DNA of 64,000 nt from a phage (GCA_023802575.1 GCA_023802575.1_3947.1), one strand, 5' to 3'. Shown: positions 192 to 5,203, numbered from the stretch's first letter. Notes: a model not told the origin generated them from the letters alone. A program made the numbers and translations.

Positions 192-267
192 TGGAGAATC
201 CGAAGGGACTCGAACCCTTATAAACCTGTTTTGCAGACAGGCACATAGCCATTTCTGTCACGGATTC
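192..267 (-). tRNA. tRNA-Cys (anticodon GCA)
   Basis: cloverleaf on minus strand; T-arm AAGGG-TTCGAGT-CCCTT; anticodon loop CTGCAAA; encoded CCA; coords approx. Confidence 0.8.
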
Positions 268-271
268 AAAT

Positions 272-364
272 TGGAGGAAGATACCAGACTTGAACTGGTA
301 CACCGATTTCTCAGCTACTGGCAGTTTAGCAAACTGCTCCCTTACCTTTTAGGGTTAATCTTCC
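272..364 (-). tRNA. tRNA-Ser (anticodon GCU), type II
   Basis: acceptor GGAAGAT/ATCTTCC; anticodon stem GCAGT/ACTGC, loop TTGCTAA; long variable arm; T-arm ACCAG-TTCAAGT-CTGGT; coords approx. Confidence 0.75.
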
Positions 365-365
365 G

Positions 366-1100
366 TTATTTCCGTAATGCGTTCTTCATTTCTGGTGTTG
401 CAATAGTATCAATTACACCAGTTTTACAAGAATCATCAAACCAGTCTGGTAAGATACCTGCTAAGAACCCATTGATATTCGTTTTAAGGTACTCTGCAAT
501 AAGAGCAGCTTCTTCTTCAATCATCTGCACAACTTCATCTGCATAAGCTGTAATCTTCGAAATACCTTCATTAATCTTACTAACAGCTTGGTTAGCTAAA
601 TCAGAAATAGTATCAAGACCTTTGTCAATAGCGTCTTGTAAGTCACTTAATACATCATTAACACCGTCTAGTGCACTGTTAATCGTATCAATAGCTTTTT
701 GACCATACTCTGTAGCAACACCCATAATACCACTAAATGGTGTACAACCGACTTGTTCACCTGCTGCACCCATAACATTAGAATAACCTTTTGCTACCTG
801 CATACGTGATGAAAACTCATCAATGGACTTTTGACCGTAATCCGTCAGCGTTTTGGTAGTTGATGTAGTGCTTGTCAGACTCGTTGTAAAGCTGTTAAGC
901 AGAACTGTTGTAAGTCCAGCAGCAACAAGTTTATCTTTTATTGTAGGGTCTGTTACAGAGCTAATAGAGCTTACAAGTGATGTAGAGGCAGCTACGGTTC
1001 CACCGAGAACTGCTGCACCAGTAATAAGGGGATTAGAGAACCCTTTACCAGTTTTTAAGAGATTAAAAATCTCCTTACCTTGTTCTGTCATCTCTTTCAT
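366..1100 (-). CDS. hypothetical protein (~244 aa), Ala/Ser/Thr-rich
   Basis: six-frame ORF 366..1163; start moved to internal ATG at 1100 because the 5' extension overlaps tRNA-Phe; SD-like AAAGGTG upstream. Confidence 0.45.
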   Translation of the reverse strand: MKEMTEQGKEIFNLLKTGKGFSNPLITGAAVLGGTVAASTSLVSSISSVTDPTIKDKLVAAGLTTVLLNSFTTSLTSTTSTTKTLTDYGQKSIDEFSSRMQVAKGYSNVMGAAGEQVGCTPFSGIMGVATEYGQKAIDTINSALDGVNDVLSDLQDAIDKGLDTISDLANQAVSKINEGISKITAYADEVVQMIEEEAALIAEYLKTNINGFLAGILPDWFDDSCKTGVIDTIATPEMKNALRK

Positions 1101-1116
1101 TAAGCACCTTTGAAAT

Positions 1117-1192
1117 TGGTAGTCCAGTGGGATTTGAACCCTCTTCTCATGTTTTTCAGACACGCGCTTTAACCATATAAGCTACTTGGACT
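1117..1192 (-). tRNA. tRNA-Phe (anticodon GAA)
   Basis: T-loop GGTTCAAATCC (minus sense); anticodon loop CTGAAAA; encoded CCA; coords approx. Confidence 0.8.
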
Positions 1193-1198
1193 ATAAAT

Positions 1199-1274
1199 TG
1201 GGGTGACCTACGGGATTTGAACCCGTATAGACCATGTTCACAGCATGGGTCATTACCATTTATGATAAGGCCAC
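1199..1274 (-). tRNA. tRNA-His (anticodon GUG)
   Basis: anticodon stem CCATG/CATGG, loop CTGTGAA; T-arm ACGGG-TTCAAAT-CCCGT; coords approx. Confidence 0.75.
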
Positions 1275-1305
1275 ATTTAAGGACTCTCGTAAGAACCCTT
1301 AGAAG

Positions 1306-1381
1306 TGGCAGCGGCATAAGGATTTGAACCTTAATAAGACAGCTTCAGAGACTGCTGCATTACCAGTTATGCTATACCGCT
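1306..1381 (-). tRNA. tRNA-Gln (anticodon CUG), tentative
   Basis: D-stem GCAT/ATGC; anticodon stem GCAGT/GCTGT with G-U ends, loop CTCTGAA; T-arm TAAGG-TTCAAAT-CCTTA. Confidence 0.6.
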
Positions 1382-1386
1382 AAATT

Positions 1387-1465
1387 TGGTACTCCATATC
1401 GGATTCGAACCGATACATAACACAGATTTTAAGTCTGGCCTCTCTGCCAATTGGAGTAATGGAGC
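1387..1465 (-). tRNA. tRNA with anticodon UAA (Leu-like), atypical enlarged D region
   Basis: acceptor GCTCCAT/ATGGAGT; loop CTTAAAA; T-arm ATCGG-TTCGAAT-CCGAT; 79 nt, D-region contains AATTGGCAGAG; isotype tentative. Confidence 0.5.
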
Positions 1466-1467
1466 AT

Positions 1468-1543
1468 TGGCGGGGGATGTTGGAATTGAACCAACTTCTT
1501 CGATTTCAAAGACCGAGGTTTTAACCTTGTAAACTAATCCCCT
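1468..1543 (-). tRNA. tRNA-Gln (anticodon UUG)
   Basis: D-stem GTTT/AAAC; anticodon stem TCGGT/ATCGA, loop CTTTGAA; T-arm GTTGG-TTCAATT-CCAAC. Confidence 0.75.
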
Positions 1544-1551
1544 TTAAATCT

Positions 1552-2109
1552 TTACTTTCTTAGTGGATGAATAAAGAATGCCAACATAACTCTTTCCCTT
1601 GAGAATGCTCTTTCTTCTGGGACAACACTTTTTAGCTTCCACCCAATATAAATTCTCCAGTAAAACTGTTTACCAAAGATTTTAATTGATGGGATAAAAG
1701 CGAATAATCCCCAAGCATTGCTGTTCCACATTAGGAGATAACCTGTCTGATTATCTTCAGGGTTAGAACTTACGTTGATATTACCTTTCCACTTGGTAAC
1801 ATCTTTTACATCTCTTCCTAATACATGGTAAGAGAAGTTATAAGCTTTGTTTCTCCAGAGCCAACCGACTCTCTGCATATAGACACCAAGCTTACCAATC
1901 CATCTAATATTAGCCCATCTCTTAACGTGACCTTCATCACCATCAATTGGGTTGTCATAAGTTTCCATCCATCTAAATCCGAAAGGTAAGTGTCCTTTCT
2001 TCTCACTGTAAAATGGAACTACAAAAGGTGCTAAGATAACTGCTAAGATTGCTGCAAATGGTTCTAACAAAGCTAAGAAAATCCATGAAGCATACTTCAA
2101 ATATCTCAT
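1552..2109 (-). CDS. hypothetical membrane protein (185 aa) embedded in the tRNA array
   Basis: six-frame ORF; hydrophobic N-terminal segment; Trp-rich; fills the gap between tRNA blocks. Confidence 0.5.
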   Translation of the reverse strand: MRYLKYASWIFLALLEPFAAILAVILAPFVVPFYSEKKGHLPFGFRWMETYDNPIDGDEGHVKRWANIRWIGKLGVYMQRVGWLWRNKAYNFSYHVLGRDVKDVTKWKGNINVSSNPEDNQTGYLLMWNSNAWGLFAFIPSIKIFGKQFYWRIYIGWKLKSVVPEERAFSRERVMLAFFIHPLRK

Positions 2110-2128
2110 CTAAATAGCCTCTTTAAAT

Positions 2129-2204
2129 TGGCGCAGGATAAGGGATTCGAACCCCTATTAACAGCTTCGTAGACTGTTGCTCTATCCATTTGAACTAATC
2201 CTGC
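2129..2204 (-). tRNA. tRNA-Arg (anticodon ACG)
   Basis: acceptor GCAGGAT/ATCCTGC; anticodon stem ACAGT/GCTGT, loop CTACGAA; T-arm AGGGG-TTCGAAT-CCCTT. Confidence 0.8.
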
Positions 2205-2209
2205 AAAAT

Positions 2210-4227: not shown

Positions 4228-4364
4228 TTACCAGACCGTTGTTTATCATCTTAAGTGCTACCATTACACCAACTCGACATCTGCCGAGTGAAGGAATCGA
4301 ACCTTCGCCTTTTCTTTACCGGAGAAATAGATTGTTTAAGTTTTTGCTGTAAACGGTCTTCTGT
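4228..4364 (-). ncRNA. R1: structured repeat element with embedded tRNA-like module (T-arm, acceptor-like stem, D-arm-like); candidate Y-RNA-like ncRNA
   Basis: minus sense CAGAAGACCGTT...AACGGTCTGG terminal stem; internal GAAGG-TTCGATT-CCTTC, ACTCGGC/GTCGAGT stem and TTGGTGTAATGGTAGCAC; no anticodon arm. Confidence 0.45.
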
Positions 4365-4377
4365 AAATTTGTTGAGC

Positions 4378-4454
4378 CAGACCAAGTTTTAAATTTTTTC
4401 AAAATTAAATTGGCTTGAAAATATCATACATATTTGCTGAATTTGGTCTTCTGC
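4378..4454 (-). repeat. R2: member of CAGAAGACC...GGTCTGG structured element family
   Basis: minus sense CAGAAGACCAAATTCAGCAAA...TTGGTCTGG; terminal stem AGACCAA/TTGGTCT. Confidence 0.5.
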
Positions 4455-4540
4455 TCCTTTAAAGAATACTCGTAAGAACTCTTTAAGGGAGGGGCTAAAT
4501 AGCCCTCTCAAAACATCATTTTGAAATACTTATTATAATT

Positions 4541-4618
4541 TGGCGGTTACGAAGGGATTTGAACCCTCATCATCTCCCGTGACAGGGGAGTATTTTAACC
4601 AGATTAAACTACATAACC
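4541..4618 (-). tRNA. tRNA-Asp (anticodon GUC)
   Basis: anticodon stem CTCCC/GGGAG, loop CTGTCAC; T-arm GAGGG-TTCAAAT-CCCTT. Confidence 0.8.
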
Positions 4619-4623
4619 TTTAT

Positions 4624-4711
4624 TGGTGTGCCGTGTAGGAGTCGAACCTACCGAGTCTCAATGACAAGGGATTTACAGTCCCCACCGCTACCATCTACGG
4701 GATAACGACAC
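4624..4711 (-). tRNA. tRNA-Tyr (anticodon GUA), type II
   Basis: anticodon stem GGGGA/TCCCT, loop CTGTAAA; long variable arm; T-arm GTAGG-TTCGACT-CCTAC. Confidence 0.8.
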
Positions 4712-4719
4712 ATTTAATT

Positions 4720-4796
4720 TGGCGGTTAGTCAGGGATTCGAACCCTGTGCCATTCGCTTAACAGGCGACCGCACATACCTTATGTGCTTCCTAACC
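4720..4796 (-). tRNA. tRNA-Asn (anticodon GUU)
   Basis: D-stem GCAC/GTGC; loop CTGTTAA; T-arm CAGGG-TTCGAAT-CCCTG. Confidence 0.7.
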
Positions 4797-4805
4797 TTAA
4801 TACAT

Positions 4806-4868
4806 TGCCAGACCGTGTTTTTTCTTTTATCCGCAAAAAGTATTTTGTTGCTGAATACGGTCTTCTGC
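4806..4868 (-). repeat. R3: member of CAGAAGACC...GGTCTGG structured element family
   Basis: minus sense CAGAAGACCGTATTCAGCAAC...CACGGTCTGG; terminal stem AGACCGT/ACGGTCT. Confidence 0.5.
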
Positions 4869-4873
4869 AAAAT

Positions 4874-4950
4874 TGGAGGCGGGTGCAGGAGTCGAACCTG
4901 CCGATACCATGCTAATGAGACATGTGAGACGCCCTTTCTCTATACCCGCA
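4874..4950 (-). tRNA. tRNA with anticodon CAU (second copy; Met, fMet or Ile2 not resolvable)
   Basis: anticodon stem CATGT/GCATG, loop CTCATTA; T-arm GCAGG-TTCGACT-CCTGC; position 1-72 unpaired (U-C). Confidence 0.6.
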
Positions 4951-4958
4951 ATTCTTAA

Positions 4959-5038
4959 TGACCAGACCAAATCTCTTCTTTGTCCGATTTACCTTCAGAT
5001 GAATAAGATTAAGTTTGCTGTAATTGGTCTTCTGTCAA
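4959..5038 (-). repeat. R4: member of CAGAAGACC...GGTCTGG structured element family
   Basis: minus sense CAGAAGACCAATTACAGCAAA...TTTGGTCTGG. Confidence 0.5.
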
Positions 5039-5041
5039 AAC

Positions 5042-5119
5042 TGGCGTTCCAGAAGGGATTTGAACCCTCAGATATCCACTTTGAAAGAGTGGTGACTTTA
5101 CCATTTTGTCTACTGGAAC
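5042..5119 (-). tRNA. tRNA-Glu (anticodon UUC)
   Basis: anticodon stem CCACT/AGTGG, loop CTTTCAA; T-arm GAGGG-TTCAAAT-CCCTT. Confidence 0.8.
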
Positions 5120-5126
5120 ATTAATT

Positions 5127-5203
5127 TGGTCTCTGTTGGAGGACTTGAACCTCCGGCCTTACCGCCCCAAACGGAACGCTCTACCAAGCTGAGCTAAACA
5201 GAG
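5127..5203 (-). tRNA. tRNA-Pro (anticodon UGG)
   Basis: D-stem GCTC/GAGC; loop TTTGGGG with G37; T-arm GGAGG-TTCAAGT-CCTCC. Confidence 0.75.

What the first reader, a model, noticed from the sequence alone, without database searches (positions are those of the whole stretch)
192..5203. Large minus-strand tRNA array (~27 genes) with apparently complete amino-acid coverage and several atypical members
I identified by hand 27 tRNA-like genes that appear to cover all 20 amino acids, with two Lys, two Gln, two Ser, two Arg, two CAU and three Leu-type anticodons. Most encode the 3' CCA. Three Leu-anticodon tRNAs (UAA, CAA, UAG) are only 78-79 nt with an enlarged D region (shared AATTGGCAGAG) instead of the usual long variable arm. 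The two Lys tRNAs have a three-pair T-stem. One member (3225..3307, anticodon CCA) has an unusually long D region. Such arrays can compensate codon usage or replace host tRNAs cleaved by anticodon nucleases.
Basis: partly seen in the sequence, partly recalled or inferred. Interest (0 to 1): 0.45.

Follow-up and report, generated by a model that had tools for sequence, protein, structure and literature searches.

The report
Phage tRNA operon hiding Y-like RNAs
This is the well-known tRNA gene cluster of a Felix O1-type coliphage, but it also holds an unannotated odd tryptophan tRNA and four small structured RNAs that look like the partners of the Ro60-like protein gene just upstream.

Summary
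ARAGORN minus-strand tRNAs at 192-5203, and 24 pass the Rfam tRNA threshold. It is nevertheless conserved in relatives as a cloverleaf with compensatory changes, and carries A1-U72, G73 and anticodon CCA. The three Leu tRNAs do lack the long variable arm. Both Lys tRNAs have a defective or bulged T stem.

The window is a Felixounavirus, 97.5% identical to known phages. Its tRNA cluster has been published since 2010, so the array itself is already known.

What is not annotated:
- The gene directly upstream (5369-6784) has a Ro60 fold. It is 97% identical to Bas63 gp130, a reported counter to the Ppl defence.
- Four modules lie among the first tRNAs. Each is closed by a covarying bulged helix followed by CAGCAA.
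- Module D encloses a circularly permuted tRNA-like domain (T arm, closed 7-bp acceptor hairpin, D arm). This is the YrlA layout, but it gets no Rfam YrlA match.
- The same stem-CAGCAA signature sits next to homologous Ro-like genes in a mycobacteriophage, a Klebsiella phage and 55 of 75 environmental viral contigs.

Binding of these RNAs to the protein is inferred, not shown.

The parts
5369..6784 (-). Ro60-fold protein gene (471 aa; Pfam DUF2828 + DUF7788; PHROG 850 'RNA-binding protein'). HEAT-repeat ring plus vWA domain, with an invariant DxSxS MIDAS motif at D279/S281/S283.
   Evidence: Pfam and PHROGs. AlphaFold2 model with a 45-sequence alignment, pLDDT 89.4. The top 12 Foldseek PDB hits are all Ro60/Rsr, full length, E 1e-8 to 3e-6. 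97% identical to Bas63 gp130.
5322..5350 (-). sigma-70-like promoter (TTGACA-17-TAATAT), 10/12 match
5230..5259 (-). sigma-70-like promoter (TTGACA-18-TAAAGT, with TG), 27 nt upstream of tRNA-Pro
5127..5203 (-). tRNA-Pro (UGG)
   Evidence: 57.7 bits
5042..5119 (-). tRNA-Glu (UUC)
   Evidence: 60.4 bits
4959..5037 (-). Y-like module A. Lower stem UGAC/GUCA, internal loop AGA/G, upper stem AGACCAA/UUGGUCU, then CAGCAA. It starts 4 nt after Glu-CCA and ends 8 nt before the next tRNA.
4874..4950 (-). tRNA with anticodon CAU (#1). It has a 1-72 mismatch, U37 and U73. ARAGORN calls it; it is below the Rfam threshold.
4805..4870 (-). Y-like module B (UUGC/GCAA, AGA/G, AGACCGU/ACGGUCU, CAGCAA)
4720..4796 (-). 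tRNA-Asn (GUU)
   Evidence: 48 bits
4624..4711 (-). tRNA-Tyr (GUA) with a long variable arm. ARAGORN calls it; it is below the Rfam tRNA threshold. Its Felix O1 homologue was flagged 'Pseudo'.
   Evidence: PMC3185647 Table 1
4541..4618 (-). tRNA-Asp (GUC)
   Evidence: 65.2 bits
4374..4456 (-). Y-like module C (GAGC/GCUC, AGA/G, AGACCAA/UUGGUCU, CAGCAA)
4228..4366 (-). Y-like module D (YrlA-like). It has the same closing bulged helix and CAGCAA, enclosing: an anticodon-arm-like V hairpin (4327-4311), a T arm (4306-4290), a closed 7-bp acceptor hairpin (4289-4272) and a D arm (4269-4255).
   Evidence: (three covarying acceptor-hairpin pairs across three lineages)
4082..4232 (-). Very stable structured spacer closed by a 24-bp stem. 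Role unknown; restricted to the Felixounavirus lineage.
   Evidence: (-50.1 kcal/mol, z -6.0)
4006..4081 (-). tRNA-Lys (UUU), T arm GAUGGG/CCCUC
3851..3927 (-). tRNA with anticodon CAU (#2), U73
   Evidence: 55.3 bits
3773..3848 (-). tRNA-Ile (GAU)
3729..3757 (-). Internal sigma-70-like promoter (TTGACA-17-TATAGT), 11/12 match
3450..3526 (-). tRNA-Arg (UCU)
3225..3307 (-). Non-canonical tRNA-Trp (CCA): A1-U72, G73, anticodon loop CUCCAAA, encoded CCA. The extended D region has an inner helix CUC/GAG plus about 8 extra nt. Not found by ARAGORN or the Rfam tRNA model.
3122..3211 (-). tRNA-Ser (UGA); the only member without a full encoded CCA
   Evidence: (31.1 bits)
2790..2867 (-). tRNA-Leu (UAG), 78 nt, no long variable arm
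   Evidence: (40 bits)
2707..2782 (-). tRNA-Lys (CUU), T arm GAUGGG/CCCUC
2625..2700 (-). tRNA-Ala (UGC)
2544..2618 (-). tRNA-Gly (UCC)
2461..2536 (-). tRNA-Thr (UGU)
2289..2363 (-). tRNA-Val (UAC)
2210..2287 (-). tRNA-Leu (CAA), 78 nt, no long variable arm
   Evidence: (43.6 bits)
2129..2204 (-). tRNA-Arg (ACG)
1552..2109 (-). ORF inside the array (185 aa, DUF7338)
1468..1543 (-). tRNA-Gln (UUG)
1387..1465 (-). tRNA-Leu (UAA), 79 nt, no long variable arm; U8, A14 and A73 present
   Evidence: (47.5 bits)
1306..1381 (-). tRNA-Gln (CUG)
1199..1274 (-). tRNA-His (GUG)
1117..1192 (-). tRNA-Phe (GAA)
366..1100 (-). ORF inside the array (244 aa, DUF7217)
272..364 (-). tRNA-Ser (GCU)
192..267 (-). 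tRNA-Cys (GCA)
12..29 (-). Terminator-like hairpin followed by a T run, downstream of the last tRNA

Best explanation
The region is the conserved tRNA operon of a Felix O1-like (Felixounavirus) coliphage.

How it most likely works:
1. Sigma-70-type promoters just downstream of a Ro60-fold gene, plus one internal promoter, drive polycistronic transcripts. This is inferred from consensus matches.
2. Host tRNA-processing enzymes cut these transcripts into 27 tRNAs. With U34 in every four-codon box, the set can read almost every sense codon for all 20 amino acids (my own reading of the anticodon set, using standard wobble rules). This gives the phage a translation supply that does not depend on the host pool.
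3. Three kinds of members deviate from the host pattern yet keep the known E. coli charging determinants:
   - Leu tRNAs without the long variable arm, but with A73 and U8:A14.
   - A Trp tRNA with an extended D region, but with G73, A1-U72 and anticodon CCA.
   - Lys tRNAs with a bulged T stem.
   These are probably charged normally while differing in shape from the host tRNAs. Charging is inferred.
4. Four non-tRNA modules are interleaved with the first seven tRNAs, and the same tRNA processing would release them. Modules A and B sit 3-4 nt after one tRNA's CCA and 8 nt before the next tRNA.
5. Each module is closed by a conserved bulged helix followed by single-stranded CAGCAA. Module D also contains a circularly permuted tRNA-like domain.
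6. I infer that these are phage Y RNAs that bind the adjacent Ro60-like protein, by analogy with Ro60/Rsr and YrlA. The resulting particle would act on host or phage RNA metabolism or on defence.
For: Identity of the array:
- tRNA calls.
- 97.5% DNA identity to Felixounavirus genomes; 400 phage records match.
- Same gene order in Mijalis and Bas63, and in Felix O1 and Sf14 (PMC3185647, PMC12482277).

Trp gene: compensatory changes in the anticodon, T and inner D helices. A second, ARAGORN-callable Trp-CCA allele occupies the same slot in L003 and L017.

Ro60 fold of the upstream gene: on the pLDDT 89 model.

The four modules:
- The exact motif CAGAAGACC-N5-CAGCAA occurs four times in 64 kb, all here.
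- All four are present in 28 of 29 Ounavirinae arrays examined (the window plus 28 loci).
- Closing helix: 99.5% paired, 5 of 11 pairs compensatory, 0 of 500 shuffles reach this, slid controls 21-46%.
- Module D acceptor hairpin has three different sequences in three lineages, all paired.

Link to the Ro-like gene family:
- The same T arm, closed acceptor, D arm layout lies just 3' of the 35%-identical Ro-like gene of mycobacteriophage MiniMac, where Rfam YrlA scores 37.7 bits, E 6e-7. It also occurs in Klebsiella phage KP13-26.
- Stem-CAGCAA modules lie in tandem beside the Ro-like gene in MiniMac, KP13-26 and L030-L034.
- 55 of 75 diverse viral contigs carry one on the same strand within 1 kb of the gene: 0.50 per kb against 0.07-0.11 per kb background, Poisson p about 1e-29. 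This includes 35 of the 51 contigs with no tRNA nearby.

Not protein-coding: single-nucleotide indels between near-identical module D copies.
Against: - There are no expression, processing, charging or binding data for this phage.
- Module D gets no Rfam YrlA hit, even at E <= 10 on a 200-nt stretch.
- The canonical bacterial Y RNA motif GNCGAAN0-1G is not conserved here. GGCGAAGG occurs in the window, but relatives have GGAGAAGG or GAGAGAAGG.
- The Ro-like protein matches Ro60 only at fold level: 13-16% identity, and no sequence or profile hit in the PDB.
- Bas63 gp130 alone, from a plasmid or inserted into T7, restores growth on Ppl hosts (PMC11482910). The phage RNAs are therefore not needed for the one activity shown so far.
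- Three members (Trp, Tyr, CAU#1) fail the Rfam tRNA threshold.
- The tRNAs were mostly dispensable in Bas63 on laboratory hosts (PMC11482910).
Confidence: 0.72

Rival explanations
1. This is a plain codon-compensation tRNA array. The conserved spacers are only cis-acting punctuation (RNase E, RNase III or RNase P guide structures, or stabilisers) for maturing the polycistronic tRNA precursor, with no link to the Ro-like protein.
For: Modules A and B fit exactly between tRNAs. Other spacers with no CAGCAA motif are also highly structured and conserved. Phage GC is about 40%, against a host GC of about 50% as cited for Felix O1's hosts (PMC3185647), so codon use differs.
Against: The stem-CAGCAA signature tracks the Ro-like gene, not tRNAs. 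35 of 51 environmental loci with no tRNA within 3 kb still have a module next to the gene. In MiniMac, three modules sit directly 3' of the gene, with the only tRNA about 1.2 kb upstream. A permuted tRNA-like domain with a covarying closed acceptor hairpin is not needed for punctuation.
Confidence: 0.15
2. The CAGCAA modules are cis-regulatory operators or UTR elements. The Ro-like protein, or another factor, uses them to control its own mRNA or the downstream operon. They are not trans-acting Y RNAs.
For: In many environmental contigs a single module lies about 30 nt after the stop codon or just before the start of the Ro-like gene. Modules lie upstream in 36 cases and downstream in 37.
Against: In this window the modules lie downstream of two promoter-like sites, separated from the gene, and are embedded between tRNAs that will be excised. 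Up to five tandem copies and a tRNA-like domain suit stable RNAs better than an operator.
Confidence: 0.12
3. The atypical members (Trp 3225-3307, Tyr, CAU#1, and possibly the short Leu tRNAs) are decaying pseudogenes or tRNA-like decoys, not translation substrates.
For: Trp, Tyr and CAU#1 fall below the Rfam tRNA threshold. tRNAscan-SE flagged the Felix O1 Tyr as 'Pseudo' (PMC3185647). Array content varies between relatives.
Against: Compensatory substitutions keep every Trp helix, and the anticodon CCA is invariant. The Leu-UAA gene is >=99% identical in 216 phage records. Identity elements for the E. coli synthetases are retained (PMC9976931). A decoy role would still require conservation, so this evidence excludes decay but not the decoy reading.
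Confidence: 0.12
4. The array's main selected role is to resist tRNA-targeting immunity (PrrC, RloC, PARIS, retron- or Cas13-linked tRNases) by supplying cleavage-resistant substitutes. The odd shapes of Lys, Leu and Trp are escape adaptations.
For: Two Lys tRNAs share an unusual T arm that is conserved in relatives. Anticodon-loop differences from host tRNAs are reported for the homologous Sf14 set (PMC12482277). The general hypothesis is in PMC10264068. The neighbouring Ro-like gene is itself a reported anti-defence factor (PMC11482910).
Against: This was not tested here. No nuclease is known that discriminates by T stem or variable arm. This is compatible with the best explanation rather than exclusive of it.
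Confidence: 0.3

Closest known systems
tRNA clusters of Felix O1-like phages (Felix O1, wV8, Bas63; Mooglevirus Sf14 and Mijalis)
   Same: Same genes in the same order. 97.5% DNA identity to vB_EcoM_ULIM8. Same placement downstream of the DUF2828 gene.
   Different: Nothing material. Published annotations list 22-26 tRNAs and 19 amino acids. They omit the Trp gene and the four modules, and sometimes place small CDS over them (PMC12482277).
YrlA-type bacterial and mycobacteriophage Y RNAs (Rfam RF02553; Chen et al. 2014, PMC4201824)
   Same: Encoded within about 1 kb of a Ro60-type gene on the same strand. 5' and 3' ends pair into a closing helix. The interior runs V hairpin, T arm, closed acceptor-like hairpin, D arm, with tRNA-like T and D loops. 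A 7-bp acceptor hairpin, as in M. smegmatis YrlA.
   Different: No RF02553 match. GNCGAAN0-1G is replaced by AGAAGACC...CAGCAA. The partner protein is the divergent DUF2828 family. The RNA is embedded in a tRNA operon and accompanied by three paralogous modules that lack the tRNA-like domain.
Thermus phage phiLo Ro60 with Yrl1/Yrl2 (PMC12135203; PDB 9KOP, 9L5Y)
   Same: A phage-encoded Ro60-fold protein with small stem-bulge-stem RNAs encoded beside it. It is the best structural match to the window protein.
   Different: phiLo Ro60 is described as a canonical Ro60 homolog, and its Yrls were identified by a CGAA motif (PMC12135203). They have no reported tRNA-like domain and no tRNA array.
Class I-like tRNA-Leu of animal mitochondria
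   Same: A leucine tRNA without the long variable arm. Identity rests on A73 and A14 (PMC9976931).
   Different: Here the D arm, T arm and size are otherwise of the bacterial type. The presumed charging enzyme is the host bacterial LeuRS.
Phage T4 tRNA cluster with stable RNAs C and D
   Same: Small stable non-tRNA RNAs co-transcribed with and processed from a phage tRNA operon (my own knowledge, not checked here).
   Different: No sequence relationship was tested, and T4 has no Ro60-like gene next to its cluster as far as I know.

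Membership tests
tRNA (Rfam RF00005 / cloverleaf) | Covariance-model score at or above the gathering score (29 bits) | tested here: met
   24 of 27 pass at 31-65 bits. Not met for Trp 3225-3307, Tyr 4624-4711 and CAU#1 4874-4950.
tRNA (Rfam RF00005 / cloverleaf) | Four-arm cloverleaf supported by compensatory substitutions (tested for the Trp candidate) | tested here: met
   99.4% of cells paired; 5 pairs changed on both sides; 0 of 500 shuffles reach this; slid controls show none. 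Minimum-energy fold is a cloverleaf.
tRNA (Rfam RF00005 / cloverleaf) | Canonical D arm (3-4 bp stem, 7-11 nt loop, 2 nt after the acceptor stem) | tested here: not met
   This applies to the Trp candidate only. About 10 nt lie between the acceptor stem and the covarying CUC/GAG helix. The other 26 are canonical.
tRNA (Rfam RF00005 / cloverleaf) | Processed, aminoacylated and used on ribosomes | not testable with these tools
   Needs tRNA-seq or acid-gel northern blots from infected cells.
Bacterial class II tRNA-Leu | Long variable arm (stem-loop of more than 10 nt) | tested here: not met
   The variable regions are 5-7 nt in all three Leu genes.
Bacterial class II tRNA-Leu | E. coli LeuRS determinants A73 and A14 (U8:A14) | tested here: met
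   Read from the sequences. The determinants are taken from PMC9976931.
E. coli-type tRNA-Trp | Anticodon CCA, discriminator G73, A1-U72 | tested here: met
   Window sequence 3225-3307. CCA and G73 are invariant in 9 variants; position 1 varies A/G, still pairing with U72. G73 as the major determinant comes from PMC9976931.
Ro60 / TROVE protein | HEAT-repeat ring plus C-terminal vWA domain fold | tested here: met
   The top 12 Foldseek PDB hits are all Ro60/Rsr over the full length, TM 0.47-0.66. The DxSxS motif is invariant.
Ro60 / TROVE protein | Sequence-level match to TROVE or to solved Ro60 chains | tested here: not met
   Pfam returns DUF2828 and DUF7788 only. phmmer and a profile search of the PDB find no Ro60.
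YrlA Y RNA (RF02553) | Encoded within 4 kb of the Ro60 gene, on the same strand | tested here: met
   Modules lie at 5037-4228 and the gene ends at 5369, all on the minus strand.
YrlA Y RNA (RF02553) | T-like and D-like stem-loops separated by a closed acceptor-like hairpin, inside a terminal helix | tested here: met
   Module D. The hairpin covaries.
YrlA Y RNA (RF02553) | GNCGAAN0-1G motif near the 5' end | tested here: not met
   It is absent from the 5' region. The internal GGCGAAGG is not conserved in relatives.
YrlA Y RNA (RF02553) | Covariance-model match | tested here: not met
   No hit at E <= 10. The mycobacteriophage control scores 37.7 bits, E 6e-7, itself below the gathering score of 69.
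YrlA Y RNA (RF02553) | Bound by the Ro60 orthologue in vivo | not testable with these tools
   Needs immunoprecipitation or a gel-shift assay.

The most novel reading that the evidence does not exclude
The stem-(U)WW-CAGCAA modules are a previously undescribed, widespread class of phage Y RNAs. They would be the cognate partners of the DUF2828 Ro60-like proteins found in hundreds of phage lineages. In Felix O1-like phages they are produced by tRNA-operon processing. One of them carries a permuted tRNA mimic which, with the shape-shifted Lys, Leu and Trp tRNAs, would form a combined system against RNA-targeting host immunity.
Probability: 0.35. Interest if true: 0.72.

Novelty: new member of a known kind. 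Interest (0 to 1): 0.5.

Why it matters
The tRNA array itself adds nothing new. Three by-products are useful.

1. Felix O1-like phages would encode tRNAs for all 20 amino acids, not the 19 reported for the related phage Sf14 (PMC12482277). The Trp gene escapes standard detectors.

2. These phages maintain leucine tRNAs without the long variable arm in a bacterial host. That is a natural test of what LeuRS, and any tRNA-targeting nuclease, actually reads.

3. The PhageMaP study showed that the neighbouring Ro60-like protein (Bas63 gp130) counters the Ppl defence. It could only guess that some annotated tRNAs might be Y RNAs. The coordinates and motifs given here name concrete candidates in the unannotated spacers. 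The same signature beside homologous genes in unrelated phages turns that guess into a directly testable hypothesis.

Tried and rejected
- Rfam at gathering and at E <= 10 gave nothing but tRNAs for the spacers. Weak tmRNA, permuted-tmRNA, plastid-UTR and miRNA hits overlap tRNAs or their reverse strands, and I dismissed them.
- The weak Rfam YrlA hit at 1131-1253 (17 bits) is just the Phe/His tRNA pair, the known 'dimeric tRNA' false positive.
- Sequence and profile searches of the PDB with the Ro-like protein found nothing relevant.
- The single-sequence AlphaFold model was unusable at pLDDT 44.6 and was replaced by the alignment-based model.
- NCBIfam gave no family.
- I considered GGCGAAGG in module D as the canonical Y RNA motif and rejected it, because relatives lose it.
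- I considered whether the modules encode small peptides. The motif reads xEDxxQQ in one frame, and TTG-start ORFs of 40-47 aa overlap them. I rejected this because of 1-nt indels between near-identical orthologues, long-range covariation with the 3' strand, and ORFs that run through tRNA genes.
- The modules have no T run after the stem, so they are not intrinsic terminators.
- The phage Leu-UAA tRNA has no detectable homologue in 5,426 E. coli genomes, so it is not a recent host capture.
- I did not redo a codon-usage comparison with the host; I rely on PMC3185647 and PMC12482277.

Full report
**1. The observation**

ARAGORN finds 26 tRNA genes between 192 and 5203, all on the minus strand. 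Rfam's tRNA model passes 24 of them at its gathering score, 31-65 bits. Tyr (4624-4711) and the first CAU tRNA (4874-4950) are called by ARAGORN only.

Its best Rfam score is 23 bits against the tRNA-Sec model.

All ARAGORN genes except Ser-UGA, and also the Trp candidate, encode the 3' CCA.

The three Leu genes are 79, 78 and 78 nt. Each has a 3-bp D stem, an 11-nt D loop and a variable region of only 5-7 nt. The long arm really is missing. The D arm, however, is the usual tRNA-Leu type rather than an enlargement (my own knowledge of E. coli tRNA-Leu).

Both Lys genes share the T arm GAUGGG-UUCRAUU-CCCUC. It reads either as three pairs with two mismatches or as five pairs with one bulged pyrimidine. 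That nucleotide varies U/C in relatives.

**2. Where the window comes from**

The first 6 kb are 97.5% identical to Escherichia phage vB_EcoM_ULIM8, and 400 phage records match, mostly Felixounavirus.

The tRNA cluster of this group has been published several times:
- Felix O1: 22 tRNAs (PMC3185647).
- wV8: 23 tRNAs (PMC2674420).
- The related Mooglevirus Sf14: 26 tRNAs for 19 amino acids, in the same order as here (PMC12482277).

In 28 related loci the order is conserved, but single genes come and go. The array as such is therefore already known.

**3. The atypical members are real**

The Trp candidate is present in 24 related loci. On nine distinct sequences the cloverleaf I wrote down is 99.4% paired. 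Five pairs are changed on both sides:
- three in the anticodon stem (ACGG/CCGU to UAAG/CUUA),
- one in the T stem (G-C to U-A),
- one in the inner D helix (CUC/GAG to CAC/GUG).

None of 500 shuffles reaches these values, and slid controls show no compensation. The minimum-energy fold is the same cloverleaf.

The anticodon CCA, the loop CUCCAAA (UUCCAAC in one subgroup), G73 and a pairing 1-72 (A-U or G-U) are kept. G73 is the major E. coli TrpRS determinant (PMC9976931). Two relatives carry a different 71-nt Trp-CCA allele in the same slot, also with A1-U72 and G73, and ARAGORN does call that one.

I conclude that the slot encodes a tRNA-Trp with a non-canonical, extended D region. The array then covers all 20 amino acids.

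The short Leu tRNAs keep A73 and U8:A14, the elements that specify leucine identity in E. coli (PMC9976931). Further points on them:
- Leu-UAA is >=99% identical in 216 phage records.
- It has no counterpart in E. coli genomes.
- A Klebsiella phage from another subfamily carries a 77-nt Leu-UAA with the same D arm, next to a normal 87-nt Leu.

Charging of all these species is inferred, not shown.

**4. The region is not only tRNAs**

The ORF directly upstream (5369-6784, same strand) matches Pfam DUF2828 and DUF7788 and PHROG 850 'RNA-binding protein'. With a 45-sequence alignment, AlphaFold2 gives a confident model, pLDDT 89.4. Its twelve best Foldseek matches in the PDB are all Ro60 proteins aligned over the full length: Thermus phage phiLo, Xenopus, human and Deinococcus Rsr. 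Sequence searches do not see this relationship.

The protein is 97% identical to Bas63 gp130. A preprint reports that gp130 counters the Ppl defence. Its authors noted the Ro60-like fold and guessed that some annotated tRNAs might be Y RNAs (PMC11482910).

**5. Four modules among the first tRNAs**

The motif CAGAAGACC-N5-CAGCAA occurs exactly four times in the 64-kb window, all between tRNA-Glu and tRNA-Lys(UUU). Each copy is followed 60-130 nt later by GGUCUGG. All four modules are present in 28 of the 29 Ounavirinae arrays examined (the window plus 28 loci). The exception lost one by recombination between T arms.

Across paralogues and orthologues the ends form a helix with three parts:
- a 4-bp lower stem NNNC/GNNN,
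- an internal loop 5'-AGA / 3'-G,
- an upper stem AGACCNN/NNGGUCU.

On this helix 99.5% of cells pair and 5 of 11 pairs show compensatory change. No shuffle in 500 reaches this, and slid controls give 21-46%.

Modules A and B start 3-4 nt after one tRNA's CCA and end 8 nt before the next tRNA. Ordinary tRNA processing would therefore release them. They carry no T run, and 1-nt indels between near-identical copies rule out coding.

**6. Module D is a permuted tRNA mimic**

Inside the same closing helix, module D (4366-4228) contains, in order:
- an anticodon-arm-like hairpin,
- a T arm (GAAGG-UUCGAUU-CCUUC),
- a closed 7-bp acceptor hairpin,
- a UG dinucleotide,
- a D arm (GUGU-AAUGGUA-GCAC).

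The acceptor hairpin has three unrelated sequences in three lineages, all paired: ACUCGGC/GUCGAGU, ACACG/CGUGU and ACCCUUC/GAAGGGU.

The order V, T, closed acceptor stem, D is the YrlA architecture described by Chen et al. (PMC4201824). A scan I wrote for it finds one site in the window. It also finds the homologous sites in relatives, one site just 3' of the Ro-like gene of mycobacteriophage MiniMac, and one in Klebsiella phage KP13-26.

In MiniMac, Rfam's YrlA model matches that core (37.7 bits, E 6e-7), and its Ro-like gene is 35% identical to ours. Module D itself gets no YrlA match and lacks a conserved GNCGAAN0-1G. I therefore do not file it as a member of RF02553, although it is built like one.

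**7. The signature follows the protein family, not the tRNAs**

MiniMac has three tandem modules of the form GGACNNNN-N-CAGCAA...NNNNGUCCAG directly after its Ro-like gene. KP13-26 has five, of the form AGWAGNNN-N-CAGCAA...NNNCUWCUG. Distant loci L030-L034 have two or three beside theirs.

I then examined 75 diverse viral contigs whose Ro-like genes are 38-47% identical to ours:
- 55 carry at least one same-strand stem-CAGCAA module within 1 kb of the gene.
- The density is 0.50 per kb, against 0.07-0.11 per kb elsewhere or on the other strand (Poisson p about 1e-29).
- 35 of the 51 contigs with no tRNA nearby have one.

The general consensus is 5'-AGR-N5-(U)WW-CAGCAA ... YCU-G-3', and the Felix-type modules fit it. 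No Rfam family matched any of these modules at its gathering score. A text search found no paper linking CAGCAA to bacterial or phage Y RNAs.

**8. Interpretation and its limits**

Shown:
- the tRNA genes,
- the structural conservation of the Trp gene,
- the Ro60 fold,
- the four modules and their covarying helix,
- the permuted tRNA-like domain,
- the statistical association of the signature with the protein family.

Inferred:
- transcription from the promoter-like sites at 5350-5322, 5259-5230 and 3757-3729,
- release of the modules by tRNA processing,
- charging of the odd tRNAs,
- binding of the modules to the Ro-like protein.

One result counts against a simple RNP model. gp130 alone rescues T7 on Ppl hosts (PMC11482910), so the RNAs are not required for that activity. 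They may serve another function, or host RNAs may substitute.

The functional hypotheses for the tRNAs themselves, codon supply or replacement of cleaved host tRNAs, remain untested here.

**9. Verdict**

- Its interpretation is the standard one and is only partly supported.
- The array is already known.
- The added value is an overlooked Trp tRNA, the conserved short-arm Leu tRNAs, and concrete candidates for the Y RNA partners of a phage Ro60-like anti-defence protein.

Noticed in passing
window 4082-4232 (-): Very stable structured element between module D and tRNA-Lys(UUU): -50.1 kcal/mol, z = -6.0, a 24-bp closing stem around several hairpins. It is 93-99% conserved in 20 Felixounavirus loci and absent from Mooglevirus-type relatives. 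It contains a mini hairpin CAGAC-CUUAAGCAA-GUCUG that resembles the module motif.
   Followed up: partly
window 2364-2460 (-): The Thr-Val spacer is 95-100% identical across Felixounavirus and Mooglevirus, which is more conserved than the Ro-like protein. It folds well (-29.4 kcal/mol, z = -3.0). It is possibly another small RNA.
   Followed up: partly
window 3527-3772 (-) and 3308-3449 (-): Long conserved spacers flank tRNA-Arg(UCU). The first carries an 11/12 sigma-70 promoter match (3757-3729) and folds at z = -3.8. Both contain long perfect hairpins of the type CUUUAAAG...CUUUAAAG, which recur elsewhere in the array (for example 4460-4491 and 1285-1316).
   Followed up: no
window 366-1100 (-) and 1552-2109 (-): Two protein genes (DUF7217, 244 aa; DUF7338, 185 aa, annotated in relatives as a membrane protein) are embedded in the tRNA array on the tRNA strand.
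   Followed up: no
L006 9451-9592; L003/L017 about 10390-10464: The array is fluid. One relative lost module D and the 5' part of Lys-UUU by recombination between their T arms. Two relatives carry a different 71-nt Trp-CCA allele whose D loop contains CAGCAA. Arg-UCU, Arg-ACG, Asp, Tyr or Glu are missing in various relatives. Leu-UAG exists as two unrelated short-armed alleles.
   Followed up: partly
L002 (Klebsiella phage KP13-26) 7001-9135; L031/L033/L034 6170-7000: In unrelated phage groups the Ro-like gene also sits inside or beside a tRNA cluster, with tandem CAGCAA modules between the gene and the tRNAs. KP13-26 has two modules with tRNA-like domains.
   Followed up: partly
L117 (Bas63, MZ501086) 22749-23023: The GenBank annotation places two small opposite-strand hypothetical CDS (bas63_0137, bas63_0138) over modules C and D. 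These are probably mis-annotations. The Ser-GCU gene is labelled tRNA-Arg.
   Followed up: no
window 4874-4950 (-) and 3851-3927 (-): Both CAU-anticodon tRNAs have discriminator U73. The first also has a 1-72 mismatch and U at position 37. Which of them, if either, is initiator, elongator Met or a lysidine-dependent Ile2 is unresolved.
   Followed up: no
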